NCBI RefSeq assembly: GCF_006345805.1
Contig: NW_021829009.1
Coordinates: 1-7,068 of the forward strand
Source: Octopus sinensis
Lineage: Eukaryota
Length of the DNA stretch: 7,068 nt
Direction of reading: 5' to 3'
Shown: positions 1 to 7,068 of the stretch, piece by piece
Numbering within the stretch: position 1 is the stretch's first letter
Layout of the letters: each line of letters begins with the position of its first letter
The notes under the pieces: generated by a model
What the model was told of the DNA's origin: nothing
Databases searched by the model: none
Seen by the model: only the letters and a program-made list of their open reading frames with translations
Program-made: the position numbers and the translations under genes

Positions 1-527
1 AGCAGGGAGGATGCCACATCTTTGACCAGCCAATATGAAGCGGAGAAAAGATTGAGCCAATGAGATGGTGGAGAGGCCATTAGCATTTGCAGACACTGTC
101 ATATTCTCTGATGAGTCCAGATTTGCTGTATTTCCTAACAGTGGTCGAGTGTGGGTCTGGAGACTCTGTGATCAAGAATTAGATGTGAAAAGATTGCAAC
201 CAGCAATTCTGTGATGGTCTGGGGAACAATTTGGAGCAATGGTTGATCAGAGCTGGTGGAGTATGAACGAAAAATAAACACAAATAAATATGTGTCCATG
301 TTGCAAGCCCGTCACCAGATATGAACCCTATAGAACACCTCTGGGGCATAATGGACAGGACATTTCATAAACAGAACAAGAAAGCATCTTCAAAGCCAGA
401 ACTTTTGAGATTATTGCATGAAACTTTGCAAGAAATTCCGCAAGAGAATATTCATCATCTGATCAGGAACATGCCTATAAGAGCCCTTGCATTTTAAAAG
501 GCAAAGAGCATGTCTACTAAATATTAA
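1..527 (+). pseudogene. Decayed Tc1/mariner (Tc1-type DDE) transposase, C-terminal catalytic domain; 5' part lies outside the window
   Basis: Manual translation over three frames. Frame 2 gives TVIFSDESRF..GRVWVWR (FSDES at 104-118, first catalytic D). Frame 1 gives SVMVWGTIW (from 208). Frame 3 gives SPDMNPIEHLWG (from 312, catalytic E) through LIRNMP..KAKSMSTKY* (stop 525-527). In-frame stops and two frameshifts are present, and the block with the second catalytic D (QDNA-type) is missing near 308. Confidence 0.93.
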
Positions 528-585
528 ATACATTATTTACATTATTTACAATTGACGGATATTTGTCCTCATCTAGTTTGTTGTT

Positions 586-631
586 AACACAAAGTTTCGG
601 CTGATAGACCCTCCAGCCTTCATCAGGTGTC
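586..631 (-). ncRNA. Minimal type I hammerhead ribozyme motif (possibly inactive copy)
   Basis: Minus-strand RNA reads GACAC-CUGAUGA-A-GGCUG-gagggucuau-CAGCC-GAAAC-UUU-GUGUU. Stem I is GACAC/GUGUU, stem II is GGCUG/CAGCC, and both core boxes are intact. There is an extra A after A9, and stem III is nearly absent (AACUUU, one change from the palindrome AACGUU). Confidence 0.65.
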
Positions 632-678
632 TTGGGAAAATTTCGAACCTAGGTTCTCATTCCTAAGGTATTTTTCGA

Positions 679-877: not shown

Positions 878-884
878 ATTTTTG

Positions 885-923
885 ATAAAGCATATTACTC
901 TACCTCTAGTAGAATAATATGCT
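885..923. repeat. Fold-back inverted repeat built from a fragment of the element at 2685-2820
   Basis: AGCATATTACTCTAC (889-903) and GTAGAATAATATGCT (909-923) pair at 14/15 positions with a 5-nt loop. 885-911 matches 2760-2786 at 24/27. Confidence 0.8.
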
Positions 924-950
924 CACTGCTCTCTACCAGTTGGTACTCGT

Positions 951-2363: not shown

Positions 2364-2412
2364 TGTGTGTGTGCGCGCGCGCGCGTGTGTGTGTGTGTGT
2401 GTGTGTATGTAT
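2263..2412. repeat. Compound (TC)n-(TA)n-(TG)n-(CG)6-(TG)n microsatellite
   Basis: Read directly from the sequence; (CG)6 at 2374-2385. Source of several spurious ORFs. Confidence 0.97.
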
Positions 2413-2535
2413 AAAAATACAAACTGGGACAAGAACGGAAAACATTTAGGAGACGATACAAAAAACACGGACGGGACATTCGAAGCCTTCAATCTTCAGT
2501 CAAGAACCGGATCATCCTCGCAATTTCGGCTGATA
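2413..2535 (-). mobile_element. Complex island between microsatellites, probably a retroelement terminal fragment
   Basis: Sharp microsatellite borders on both sides. The minus strand carries AUCAGCCGAAA (TTTCGGCTGATA at 2524-2535 is identical to 595-606) and CUGAAGA (2493-2499). Family not identifiable from the window alone. Confidence 0.4.
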
Positions 2536-2684
2536 CATATATATATGTATGTATACACAAACACACACACACATATGTATATATGCATGTATGTATGTAT
2601 GTATGTATGTATGTATGTATGTATGTATGTATGTATGTATGTATGTATGTATGTATGTGTGTGTGTATGTATGTATGTATGTAT
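2536..2684. repeat. (TA)/(CA)/(TATG)n microsatellite
   Basis: Read directly from the sequence. Confidence 0.97.
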
Positions 2685-2820
2685 AAAGACAAAACTGTCC
2701 GACGAACGGCAACGTGAAACTCTGAGTAACAGTTTTTGTGATATTTTTGCTGCTTTCTAATAAATCATATTACTCTACCTATGGTATTCGAGTATTATTT
2801 TTTTCCTCCTTGTTTCACAT
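2685..2820 (+). mobile_element. Putative Penelope-like pseudo-LTR/3' terminal fragment
   Basis: HHR fold followed by AATAAA (2759-2764) and a T-rich stretch. It is embedded in microsatellites, co-oriented with the PLE ORF remnant at 2877, and partly duplicated at 885-911. Confidence 0.6.
2691..2736 (+). ncRNA. Minimal type I hammerhead ribozyme motif with a U4C core variant
   Basis: AAAACUGU-CCGACGA-ACG(GCAA)CGU-GAAAC-UCUGA-GUA-ACAGUUUU. Perfect 8-bp stem I (2691-2698/2729-2736), 3-bp stem II with a GNRA loop, self-complementary stem III ACUC-U-GAGU, and cleavage triplet GUA (cut after 2728). The core differs from CUGANGA only at 2700. Confidence 0.8.
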
Positions 2821-2877
2821 TTATATATATTAATATATATATATAATATATATATATTTATATATATATATATATAT
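2821..2877. repeat. (TA)n microsatellite
   Basis: Read directly from the sequence. Confidence 0.97.
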
Positions 2878-3377
2878 CCACCTCCATCCACTACAAACAC
2901 ACAGACTCCACTCATGCCTCAACTTCTCCTCCTCCCACCCTAAACACGCCAAGCTTTCCATCCTCCGTCTACGCAGGCTCTGTAGTGACGACCATGATTT
3001 TGAAACTCAGTTTCAACTCATAGCTCGCCACTTCATCCTACGTGGATATCCCCTCACCACTATCCACACCGCTCTTGCTAGAGTATGTTCCGTGGATCGT
3101 ACATCTGCTCTCTCCCCCCTCACCTGCCCCGCCGTCTCCCGTTTCCCCCTCACCTACCAACCCCACACCACCGCTCCAACGCACAATCCTCCGAGCCTTC
3201 CGGCGACTCCAGTCCGACCCCTCCACTTCGCACATCTTCCCTAACCGACTCCTCCCCTCTTTCAAACGAACTCACAACCTACGAGGCCTCTTGGTCCACA
3301 GCTTCTACCCTAACACAACCTCCTAACCCGGCTCGTTCCCCTGCTCCCACCCACGCTGCCGCACTTGCCCTTTTTTC
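2877..3377 (+). pseudogene. Decayed Penelope-like element ORF fragment (RT thumb/C-terminal region plus Cys-rich linker preceding GIY-YIG), Neptune-type
   Basis: Translation across frameshifts gives TSIHYKHTDS / HSCLNFSSSHPKHAKLSI-LRLRRLCSDDHDF..HFILRGYP..FPLTYQP / LQRTILRAFRRLQSDPSTSHIFPNRLLPSFKRTHNLRGLLVHS..* PGSFPCSHPRCRTCPF. This matches the PLE motifs YxKPTD, SxHP, LRxRRICS, RGYP, LTYHP, R..NLR..LV and Cx4Cx2C. The strand is strongly C-rich, the PYSQF-type segment is missing, and there is a stop at 3324-3326. Confidence 0.9.
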
Positions 3378-3633: not shown

Positions 3634-3842
3634 CCTTTCCACAAGAGGAACAAAGTCTGAACATTTGGGTGAGCGGATACTCGACTACATCGACCCCAGT
3701 GTTCGACTGGTACTTATTTCAACGGTCCTGAAAGGATGAAAGGCAAAGTCAACCTCGGCGGAATTTTAATTCAGCATGTAAAGAGCCTGAGAAATAACGC
3801 TAAGCATTTGTCCGGAGTGCTAGCGATTCTCCAGTTCGCCTT
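3634..3842 (-). mobile_element. tRNA-derived SINE, family A (Meta/MESC-like central domain), near full length
   Basis: Reverse complement reads GGCGAACTGGAGAATCGCTAGC..TATTTCTCAGGCTCTTTACAT..CCGAGGTTGACTTTGCCTTTCATCCTTTC..AAATAAGTACCAGTCGAACACTGG. It aligns by eye with 4713-4860 and 6662-6887. The domain name is from recall. Confidence 0.88.
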
Positions 3843-4712: not shown

Positions 4713-4860
4713 CGGTTAGCTAATATAATCATTTGTAGGCCGGACGAAATGTTTAGCGATATTACGTCCGTCCTTAAACCGAAGTTGACTTTGCTTTCAT
4801 CCTTTCGGAGTTGATAAAATAAGTACCAGTTGAACACTGGTGTCAACATAATTGACTTAA
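4713..4860 (+). mobile_element. SINE family A copy with internal deletion of the B-box region
   Basis: CCGGACGAAATGTTTAGCG..CCGAAGTTGACTTTGCTTTCATCCTTTCGGAGTTGATAAAATAAGTACCAGTTGAACACTGG is homologous to 3634-3842 and 6662-6887. The TTCTGAGTTCAAAT segment is absent near 4775. Confidence 0.87.
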
Positions 4861-6129: not shown

Positions 6130-6280
6130 TGGCTGTGTGGTTAAGAAGCTCGCTTTGCAAATCACATGGTTTCGAGTTCAGACCCCGCTGCGCGGTACTT
6201 TTGGGAAAGTATCTTCAGTTATAACCCTTGGTCGCCCAATTTCTCGAGTGAAATTGGTAGACGTAAATTGTGTAAGCCTC

Positions 6281-6350
<70 letters not shown>

Positions 6351-6567
6351 ATGTCTTTGTGTTTGCGCTCCCCCACCACCATTTGAGAACCAGTGTTGAT
6401 TTGTTTACGTTAATGTAACTTAGTAGTTCGGTAAAAGACACTGATAGACTAAGTACCAGACTTAAGAAAAAAAAGTTTTGAGGTTGACTTGTTCGATTAA
6501 ACCCGTCGATGTGGTGCCCCAGCATGGCCGCAATCCAAAGACTGAAACAAGTAAAAGATAAAGGATA
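6130..6567 (+). mobile_element. tRNA-derived SINE, family B, near full length with internal (TG)n
   Basis: A box TGGCTGTGTGG (6130-6140) and B-box-like GTTCAGACC (6176-6184). The 5' ~150 bp is homologous to 6896-7068. (TG)n at ~6283-6349. The 3' region ends GGTGCCCCAGCATGGCCGC..ACTGAAACAAGTAAAAGATAAAGGATA. Confidence 0.9.
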
Positions 6568-6661: not shown

Positions 6662-6887
6662 AATATAGAACTGTTAAGTACACAGGATAAAGCGCTGCCT
6701 TCCACTATTTCTTCAGGCTCTTTACATTCTGAGTTCAAATCCCACCGAGGTAATTTTGTTTTTCATCCTTTCGGAGCCGATGAAACAAGTACCAATCAAG
6801 CACAGAGTTCTATATAATCGACTAGCCCCACCTCGCACAAAATTCTAGGCCTTGTGCCTATAATACAAAGAATTGTTATTATTATTT
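6662..6887 (+). mobile_element. SINE family A copy with (ATT)n tail
   Basis: B box GAGTTCAAATCCC (6731-6743), core TTTCATCCTTTCGGAGCCGATGAAACAAGTACCA, then GGCCTTGTGCCTATA and an ATT tail. Confidence 0.87.
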
Positions 6888-6895
6888 CGACAGTA

Positions 6896-7068
6896 GGCGC
6901 AGGAGTGGCTTTGTGGTAAGTAGCTTGCTTACCAACCACATGGTTCCAGGTTCAATCCCACTGCGTGGCATCTTGGGTAAGTGTCTTCTGCTATAGCCTC
7001 GGGCCGACCAATGCCTTGTGAATGGATTTGGTAGACGGAAACTGAAAGAAGCCTGTCGTATATATGTA
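6896..7068 (+). mobile_element. SINE family B copy, 5' portion, runs off the window
   Basis: GGCGCAGGAG start, A box TGGCTTTGTGG (6906-6916), B box GGTTCAATCCC (6949-6959), CTTGGGTAAGTGTCTT, TTGGTAGACGGAAACTG, then the start of the internal microsatellite. Confidence 0.92.

What the first reader, a model, noticed from the sequence alone, without database searches (positions are those of the whole stretch)
2691..2736. Near-perfect minimal hammerhead ribozyme next to a Penelope-like ORF remnant
Seen: a complete type I HHR topology with 8-bp stem I, GCAA-capped stem II, GAAAC, self-complementary stem III (ACUCUGAGU) and GUA triplet, followed by AATAAA, with a co-oriented PLE ORF fragment about 140 bp downstream. 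Known: PLE pseudo-LTRs carry minimal type I HHRs whose palindromic stem III favours dimeric cleavage. Inference: this is the terminal ribozyme of a Neptune-type PLE or a non-autonomous derivative. The U4C change at 2700 is either decay or a family-wide core variant.
Basis: partly seen in the sequence, partly recalled or inferred. Interest (0 to 1): 0.8.

Follow-up and report, generated by a model that had tools for sequence, protein, structure and literature searches.

The report
Variant hammerhead ribozyme in Penelope retroelements
This is a short copy of one end of a jumping gene whose self-cutting RNA motif carried a non-standard core letter in all its older subfamilies and the standard letter only in the youngest, which likely makes it a natural series for testing whether these elements need their RNA to cut itself.

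Summary
The hammerhead fold at 2691-2736 is real (0 of 3000 shuffles match). It is a ~135-nt copy of the end of a Hydra-type Penelope-like element (PLE), found by walking copies up to intact pLTR-ORF-pLTR elements. It is not Neptune. The ORF remnant 140 bp downstream is a separate Neptune-type family with its own ribozyme variant.

C at position 4 (CCGA) is not decay. It is the majority state of every older subfamily sampled, including one with a 639-aa open frame. U4 copies there look like CpG decay (oldest group: CG 36, TG 25, CA 23 of 100). Only the youngest subfamily has canonical CUGA fixed, as do all 26 published Hydra rows, so U4 to C4 and back is inferred.

Copy 5' ends pile up at a sharp edge 47 nt upstream of the cut site (40 of 90 at -47..-34; 3 at the cut). 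Uncut RNA is therefore the likely template, perhaps starting at that edge. Cleavage was not tested. CCGA hammerheads are known in viroid-like RNAs; I found no report of a family-wide one in an animal retroelement.

The parts
2689..2822 (+). Short copy of the terminal repeat of a Hydra-type Penelope-like element (subfamily S1 here). The 5' end is about 40-44 nt upstream of the cut site; the 3' end is about 15 nt short of the usual family end.
   Evidence: closest to S1 with 8 differences against 11-17 for the other groups
2691..2698 (+). Hammerhead stem I, 5' strand (pairs with 2729-2736)
   Evidence: sequence, folding; inner 4 pairs unchanged between subfamilies
2699..2705 (+). Core C3-A9 with C at position 4 (2700) instead of U
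   Evidence: family state
2706..2715 (+). Stem II: A-U closing pair at 10.1/11.1, two C-G/G-C pairs, GNRA loop
   Evidence: 11.1 is U, G or A by subfamily
2716..2728 (+). G12-A14, near-palindromic helix III ACUC-U-GAGU, GUA triplet; predicted cut between 2728 and 2729
   Evidence: self-dimer of the 9-mer -7.9 kcal/mol; the same ACUC-N-GAGU in 5 published Hydra families
2729..2736 (+). Hammerhead stem I, 3' strand
2759..2765 (+). AATAAA(G) block; inverted partner copies end right after it, a likely first reverse-transcription start site
   Evidence: 0 of 50 partners found carried the full tail
2766..2822 (+). 'Tail' extension with a predicted hairpin at about 2767-2798
   Evidence: analogy to the PAc tail (PMC11167929)
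2574..2684 (.). (TATG)n microsatellite, 5' flank
2822..2877 (.). (TA)n microsatellite, 3' flank and likely target, shared with the neighbouring insertion
2878..3372 (+). Separate, broken fragment of a Neptune-type PLE (RT thumb to C-x4-C-x2-C linker at 3342-3368); not part of the ribozyme's element

Best explanation
The segment is a short genomic copy of the terminal repeat of a Hydra-type Penelope-like retroelement whose hammerhead motif has C at core position 4 in all older subfamilies sampled and U only in the youngest; it is likely a slow, dimer- or protein-assisted ribozyme, and the element is likely copied from uncut RNA. Shown: family, clade motifs, subfamily states and ages, two fixed 3' ends, and a sharp 5' edge at -47. 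Inferred steps: (1) transcription starts about 47 nt upstream of the cut site, at an Initiator-like CCATTCT (consensus recalled), so the RNA reads ribozyme, tail, ORF, long 3' UTR, ribozyme, tail. (2) The element's protein nicks (TA)n DNA and starts reverse transcription at either end of a tail. The upstream tail gives short copies like this one, which stop at the RNA 5' end; the downstream tail gives long copies. (3) Fast cutting would remove the cap or separate the ORF from its priming tail, so a weak core is tolerated. (4) The youngest subfamily regained U4 by a CpG transition while it also lost the 10.1-11.1 pair. This window copy is a promoter-less relic and probably does nothing.
For: Family: 1376 exact GGAA-loop cores, 90 of the first 100 listed with C4; 3702 GCAA-loop cores, 32 C4 and 68 U4 in the first 100. 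CpG symmetry in the oldest group: CG 36, TG 25, CA 23, TA 5, other 11 of 100 listed, TG vs CA p 0.89. Non-CpG divergence falls from 0.10-0.12 (S0) through 0.05 (S1), 0.03, 0.02, 0.02 and 0.016 (median, S3) to 0.007 (S4); S4 is U4 in 37 of 38. L144 pairs C4 with a 639-aa open frame 92% identical to S4; S1 ORFs are mostly about 55-75% identical. In the tree, S3+S4 (97/98) are sister to the S1 group, so C4 lies on both sides. All 26 Hydra rows in the published table have CUGA. Between subfamilies 0 of 28 core and inner-helix columns changed apart from one 4:4 CpG tie, against 8 of 20 in the 3' spacer (p 0.0003). G5A and G8A, the opposite-strand CpG changes, never became fixed. 5' ends: 40 of 90 at -47..-34, 5 at -99..-48 and 3 exactly at the cut, similar in U4 (22 of 50) and C4 (15 of 29) classes. 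Literature: a CCGA hammerhead cleaved in vitro (bioRxiv 10.64898/2026.09.16.752053); U4C is weaker but viable in a viroid (PMC3088659 passage); PAc insertion does not need cleavage and its ribozyme needs the protein (PMC11167929).
Against: No cleavage or RNA-end data; only assembled contigs were available. The tail is also conserved (8 of 69 columns changed; 0 of 28 vs 8 of 69, p 0.10), so the constraint is not shown to be ribozyme-specific. Covariation is weak: 5 pairs with double changes, slid controls reach similar cell counts, and the alignment was filtered for an intact core. In the S1-type pattern U4 (90) exceeds G5A (61), p 0.022, a small excess over symmetric decay. The published Hydra rows came from a CUGANGA descriptor, so they could not show CCGA. 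Listed rows are the first along the largest contigs, not random, and S1/S0 ages come partly from similarity-picked hits. No ORF was found for S0. The Hydra linker CxCx5C reads CxFx5C here. Many 5' junctions are fold-backs at short palindromes, which could shape the -47 edge.
Confidence: 0.68

Rival explanations
1. The C4 motif is catalytically dead. The fold and core are kept for another job (binding of the element's protein, promoter or RT-start signal), and the return to U4 is a neutral CpG change like C7 to U7.
For: C4 lasted through six subfamily groups despite CpG pressure toward U; the 5'-end pattern is the same for C4 and U4; the tail is conserved too; PAc ribozyme mutants still insert in vitro; the neighbouring Neptune-type family carries an A6U core.
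Against: All other catalytic positions stayed fixed while loops and mismatch sites changed; CCGA cores cleave elsewhere; U4C is a tolerated change in a viroid.
Confidence: 0.17
2. Cleavage is needed: two ribozymes cut out a unit-length RNA that is ligated into a circle (model of PMC4209133). Copies run through the rebuilt junction, and the -47 edge is an RT stall or fold-back after stem I rather than a transcription start.
For: Tandem pLTR-ORF-pLTR units exist (L139, L140); the palindrome favours dimers; a few copies start exactly at the cut (3 of 90 and 1 of 30); fold-back junctions are common (62 of 90 flagged with an inverted partner).
Against: The edge is sharp and one-sided (40 vs 3 in adjacent 14-nt bins, p 3e-9). 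It also shows in copies without an inverted partner (9 of 31) and in S1 (12 of 30), whose sequence there differs. It falls on an Initiator-like motif. Two of the four cut-site starts are explained by stem I microhomology.
Confidence: 0.12
3. One reading: terminal ribozyme of a Neptune-type element that includes the ORF remnant downstream.
For: Same strand and 140 bp apart; the remnant is Neptune-like.
Against: 0 of 29 other remnant copies carry this ribozyme nearby; 20 of 29 carry a different one; the ribozyme's ORF is Hydra-type and unrelated by BLASTP; a (TA)n array separates them.
Confidence: 0.02
4. C at 2700 is decay in this copy, or the fold is chance.
For: No Rfam hit and an ordinary folding z-score.
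Against: Thousands of exact C4 copies; 0 of 3000 shuffles match.
Confidence: 0.01

Closest known systems
Hydra-clade PLEs (Craig et al. 2021, PMC8557442), especially Hydra-2_Amil, Hydra-1/2_Ajap, Penelope-3_HM and Penelope-16_HM
   Same: RWK and DKT motifs; C-terminal GIY-YIG-type domain with CxxC and CxH around the conserved E and N; (TA)n targets; 3' hammerhead with ACUC-N-GAGU helix III; CUGU/ACAG stem I as in Hydra-2_Amil; often a mismatch at the base of stem II
   Different: C4 core in most subfamilies (all 26 published rows have CUGA); only two firm pairs in stem II; linker CxFx5C; 3.35-kb unit with a 1.0-1.5-kb 3' UTR. It is not Hydra-1_Obim, which has another protein and ribozyme.
Minimal type I hammerheads of metazoan PLEs (Cervera and de la Pena 2014, PMC4209133)
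   Same: Type I topology in the terminal repeat, palindromic helix III, many solo and opposite-strand copies
   Different: Their consensus is CUGANGAH with G10.1-C11.1, and the core variant named in the parts read is U3-A8. Here it is U4C with A-U, A.G or A.A at 10.1/11.1.
CCGA-core hammerheads of a viroid variant and of zeta virus / betaviroid-like RNAs
   Same: Same U4C change; reported active
   Different: Those are type III motifs or single variants in RNA replicons. Here the change is fixed in thousands of copies of an animal retroelement and later reverted.
PAc (Poseidon, Anolis; PMC11167929)
   Same: Two RT start sites bounding a tail, AT-rich targets, uncut RNA as the dominant template
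   Different: Different clade, canonical core overlapping the ORF start, 30-40-nt tail against about 70 nt here

Membership tests
Type I hammerhead (PLE minimal type) | Three helices around the core with open stem I and an NUH triplet | tested here: met
Type I hammerhead (PLE minimal type) | Core CUGANGA (U4) | tested here: not met
   C at 2700; family-wide in S0-S3, met only in S4. So it is filed as a core variant, not as a canonical member.
Type I hammerhead (PLE minimal type) | C3, G5, A6, G8, A9, G12-A14, A15.1-U16.1 | tested here: met
   0 of 10 columns changed between subfamilies
Type I hammerhead (PLE minimal type) | G10.1-C11.1 pair | tested here: not met
   A-U here, A.G in S3, A.A in S4; mismatches at this place also occur in published Hydra rows
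Type I hammerhead (PLE minimal type) | Palindromic helix III allowing a dimer | tested here: met
   4 bp + 1 mismatch + 4 bp, -7.9 kcal/mol; arms unchanged, only the centre varies
Type I hammerhead (PLE minimal type) | Match to an Rfam hammerhead model | tested here: not met
   no hit at E up to 10
Type I hammerhead (PLE minimal type) | Self-cleavage after NUH | not testable with these tools
   needs an in vitro assay or raw RNA reads; only contigs were held
Hydra-clade PLE | RWK motif and DKT in place of DKG | tested here: met
   RWK at aa 37 of L140; DKT in L139, L142, L143, L144, L145; single-copy changes in L140 and L141
Hydra-clade PLE | C-terminal endonuclease without CCHH, with CxxC and CxH flanking E and N | tested here: met
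   CxLC..EK..LNQR.E....CRH in S1, S3 and S4 frames; Pfam gave no hit
Hydra-clade PLE | Linker CxCX5C | tested here: inconclusive
   reads CxFx5CP in S1, S3 and S4, while the four homologues checked read CxCx5CP: same place, second Cys replaced. Hence 'Hydra-type'.
Hydra-clade PLE | Insertion into (TA)n; pLTR, inverted 5' copy and tail | tested here: met
Hydra-clade PLE | Placement with named Hydra elements in an RT tree | not tested
   the tree used unnamed homologues; named proteins were only read in the supplement
Neptune PLE (for the ribozyme's element) | DKG motif, CX2-5CxxC linker, CCHH in the endonuclease | tested here: not met
   absent from the ribozyme-linked ORF; the CX4CxxC linker belongs to the separate remnant at 3342-3368
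Non-autonomous retrozyme (tandem short repeats) | Short tandem non-coding unit with no ORF | tested here: not met
   copies walk up into an ORF-bearing 3.35-kb unit

The most novel reading that the evidence does not exclude
Animal Penelope-like elements tune their hammerheads down on purpose. This lineage held a U4C core across about 35% protein divergence because the ribozyme sits just 47 nt from the cap of its own mRNA and template. The youngest burst regained U4 only together with loss of the first stem II pair, which would keep activity low. A second family in the same genome did the same with A6U. The genomic copies record both the transcription start and the use of uncut RNA.
Probability: 0.25. 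Interest if true: 0.75.

Novelty: new variant of a known kind. Interest (0 to 1): 0.5.

Why it matters
Why PLEs keep hammerheads is an open question (PMC8557442 says the function is unclear; PMC11167929 found cleavage dispensable in vitro). This genome offers a dated natural series of one ribozyme: C4/A-U, C4/A.G and U4/A.A, with open ORFs for the last two. Activity, dimer dependence and transposition can be compared directly. It also shows that CUGANGA-only descriptors would miss thousands of real PLE motifs, so some 'ribozyme-less' PLE families may carry core variants. The window copy itself is an ordinary relic.

Tried and rejected
Rfam, whole window and motif alone: no hammerhead hit. Pfam on the window remnant, on the ribozyme-linked endonuclease and on the intact ORF: nothing useful. 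Folding z-score was not informative. Covariation counting was weak and biased by core filtering.

Sequencing runs: no RNA holder listed and only contigs, so expression and RNA ends were not tested. Laying contigs on the window copy listed no C-to-T row at 2700. Laying on the young element showed both letters at that place in four runs under four coded organism labels. Depths are not copy numbers, so neither was used for the main argument.

An ungapped 5'-end walk stopped at indels and was replaced by a gapped one. A similarity search for the oldest group was biased toward U4 by its query (18 TG of 31) and was replaced by a pattern with N at positions 4-5. GIY-YIG hits in L019 and L089 were unrelated neighbours.

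The original viroid U4C paper is not held; it is cited only through PMC3088659. Three look-ups in earlier scan findings returned nothing. Rejected readings: Neptune identity, linkage to the downstream ORF, single-copy decay, non-autonomous retrozyme, and AATAAA as a shown poly(A) signal.

Full report
Observation. A descriptor allowing U or C at position 4 finds only this site in the window. In 3000 shuffles it gave 0, 1 and 5 matches for stem I of at least 8, 6 and 4 bp. Rfam has no hammerhead hit and the folding z-score is 0.26. The genome is 2.72 Gb in 13,516 contigs; its size and repeats look like an octopus (recalled, not established by a call).

Family. A DNA search with 2685-2822 gave 2367 candidates, 40 of them scored, at 89-93% identity for the non-self best places. 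Copies sit in (TA)n, and many have an inverted partial copy just upstream. Walking upstream led through an AT-rich 3' UTR of 1.0-1.5 kb to an ORF end with a CxLC..E..LN..E..CRH pattern. A protein search with that frame found broken relatives at 72-81% identity and a young group at about 67% with open frames up to 766 aa. L140 is a full pLTR-ORF-pLTR unit of 3353 nt with an inverted 5' copy, and L139 is a tandem. The ORF has RWK, DKT (5 of 7 long frames) and the Hydra-type endonuclease described in PMC8557442 section 11. Its linker reads CxFx5C instead of CxCx5C. It has 1076 homologues among 7999 scored candidates, the best at 57%, nearly all unnamed. The published Hydra table (supplement part 2) shows the same ACUC-N-GAGU helix in five families and CUGA in all 26 rows. 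The octopus element there, Hydra-1_Obim, is a different family, and 5 of 6 motif searches for ours in that supplement found nothing; the one hit was another Hydra element.

The neighbour. The ORF remnant at about 2878-3372 has 2783 candidates. Its copies run into a GIY-YIG domain, a C-rich UTR and their own terminal motif, and they resemble the Neptune1_Ap row by eye. None of 29 other copies has the CCGA motif within 1.5 kb. Twenty of the 29 show the other motif, with U at position 6. BLASTP against the Hydra-type ORF gives E 1.1. The two pieces are best read as independent insertions into one microsatellite.

Position 4. The GGAA-loop pattern has 1376 exact matches, 90 of the first 100 listed with C4. 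The exact U4 form has 90 matches and the opposite-strand CpG change G5A has 61 (p 0.022), so U4 is roughly at the level of CpG decay with a small excess. The GCAA-loop pattern has 3702 matches; of the first 100, 32 are C4 and 68 U4, 65 of these of one type. The oldest group has 294 matches; of the first 100, positions 4-5 read CG 36, TG 25, CA 23, TA 5, other 11, which is symmetric decay of CG (p 0.89). A few of those rows are junction artefacts of younger copies.

Subfamilies and ages. I classed 224 copies by sites outside position 4; 36 stayed unclassed and were left out, and 30 pattern-picked old copies were added. Non-CpG divergence in tail-bearing copies is 0.10-0.12 (S0, n 14 and 11), 0.050 (S1, n 38), 0.032 (n 4), 0.023 (n 5), 0.018 (S2, n 6), 0.030 mean and 0.016 median (S3, n 8), and 0.007 (S4, n 18). 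C4 is the commonest letter in S0 (pattern-picked set) through S3; U4 is in 37 of 38 S4 copies. L144 (S3) has C4 and a 639-aa open frame 92% identical to S4. A tree of 29 protein rows places S3+S4 (97/98) as sister to the S1 group (90/91), with S4 as one clade (84/86, not starred). With published Hydra elements at U4, the simplest history is U to C in this lineage and back to U in S4 by a CpG transition (inference). The window copy is nearest S1 (8 differences).

Constraint. Between subfamilies, 0 of 10 fixed core columns, 0 of 8 inner stem I columns, 0 of 6 palindrome-arm columns and 0 of 4 stem II pair columns changed (one 4:4 CpG tie was set aside). Changes fell at N4, N7, the GNRA loop, 11.1, the palindrome centre, the fifth stem I pair and the outer stem. 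Against the 3' spacer (8 of 20) p is 0.0003, but against the tail (8 of 69) p is only 0.10. Pair counts on 93 core-filtered sequences gave 88% paired and weak covariation. As a monomer the active fold costs +0.1 to +0.6 kcal/mol in S3/S4 against -5.4 in the window copy, while the 9-mer self-pairs at -7.4 to -7.9. Dimer or protein help is therefore predicted, above all for the young forms.

Ends of copies. To avoid selecting for an intact ribozyme I picked copies by the tail (2809 and 63 matches) and measured 5' ends in the first 90 of 2809 and 30 of 63 (three near-duplicate pairs were kept). In S2-S4, relative to the cut: 16 run past -100, 5 end at -99..-48, 40 at -47..-34, 19 at -33..-6, 8 at -5..+8 (3 exactly at 0) and 2 beyond. 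U4 and C4 classes look alike (22 of 50; 15 of 29; 11 unclassed). In S1, 12 of 30 end at -47..-34 and 1 exactly at 0. The edge is one-sided (40 vs 3, p 3e-9) and falls on the A of CCATTCT, an Initiator-like motif (consensus recalled). Most tail copies end at one site followed by (TA)n. Of 50 inverted partners found, 45 end at AATAAAG followed by a TA-type run and none carries the full tail. This matches the two RT start sites of PAc.

Mechanism. Shown: family, clade motifs, subfamily states, two 3' ends, and the 5' edge. Inferred: transcription starts at about -47; the protein primes at a tail on nicked (TA)n; the upstream tail yields short copies like this one; the template is mostly uncut; and the ribozyme is slow and needs a dimer or the protein. 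CCGA cores can cleave (ZV1 minus strand, preprint passages), U4C is weaker but viable in a viroid (PMC3088659 passage), and PAc inserts without cleavage. Rivals are a dead core kept for binding or promoter roles, and the circular-RNA model, in which copies also run through the junction.

Literature seen. PMC4209133: parts 1-2 of 4 and supplement passages; its file 1 was not searched. PMC8557442: passages, section 11, supplement part 2 of 59 and searches. PMC3088659: passages and section 8. PMC11167929: passages and the second part of section 3. bioRxiv 10.64898/2026.09.16.752053: passages only; its supplements are closed. The viroid U4C paper was not held. Searches for a family-wide CCGA hammerhead in PLEs or cephalopods showed none in their listings. 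Subscription papers, figures and Repbase were not searchable, so this is not proof of absence.

Verdict. A real feature and a new variant of a known kind. PLE hammerheads, Hydra elements in octopus and CCGA cores are each known. The lineage-wide U4C with a late reversion, and the sharp 5' edge showing uncut templates, were not found in print and make an open question testable. Interest 0.5.

Noticed in passing
L033-L059 3' ends (family of the window remnant 2878-3372): The Neptune-type family ends in a minimal hammerhead whose core reads CUGUNGA (A6 replaced by U) in the copies matched: 20 of 29 family loci show the motif, with an AACGU(U/A) palindrome. A related motif with CUGACGA or CCGAC(G/A)A cores also occurs in a few loci. 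This is a second family-wide core variant in the same genome.
   Followed up: partly
window 575-640, minus strand: Another minimal type I hammerhead end with a canonical CUGAUGA core and 6-bp stem II. The AACGUU palindrome is broken in this copy; 12 matches in the fetched loci.
   Followed up: partly
window 2410-2536, minus strand: High-identity repeat end in (TA)n with a CUGAAGA core followed by a GAAUG(U/A)C instead of GAAAC; possibly a degenerate hammerhead of another PLE family; 15 matches in the fetched loci, 2 of them the window itself.
   Followed up: partly
window 879-945: Small fold-back fragment of the same Hydra-type tail (family D14), with an inverted repeat.
   Followed up: no
window 56-497: Broken Tc1/mariner-like transposase remnant (weak DDE_3, E 0.0006, below cut-off).
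   Followed up: no
window 3670-3840, 4740-4860, 6130-6560, 6720-6860, 6895-7068: Several dispersed short repeats that recur in many fetched loci; they look like SINE-type elements (label recalled, not tested).
   Followed up: no
L140:4140-4170 and S1/S3 frames: The second Cys of the Hydra CxCx5C linker is Phe throughout this lineage, yet (TA)n targeting is kept, which bears on the idea that the linker sets target choice.
   Followed up: no
tail hairpin, window about 2767-2798: Several subfamily changes in the tail fall in the loop and bulge of a predicted hairpin just downstream of the first copy end; a candidate RT-start signal.
   Followed up: partly
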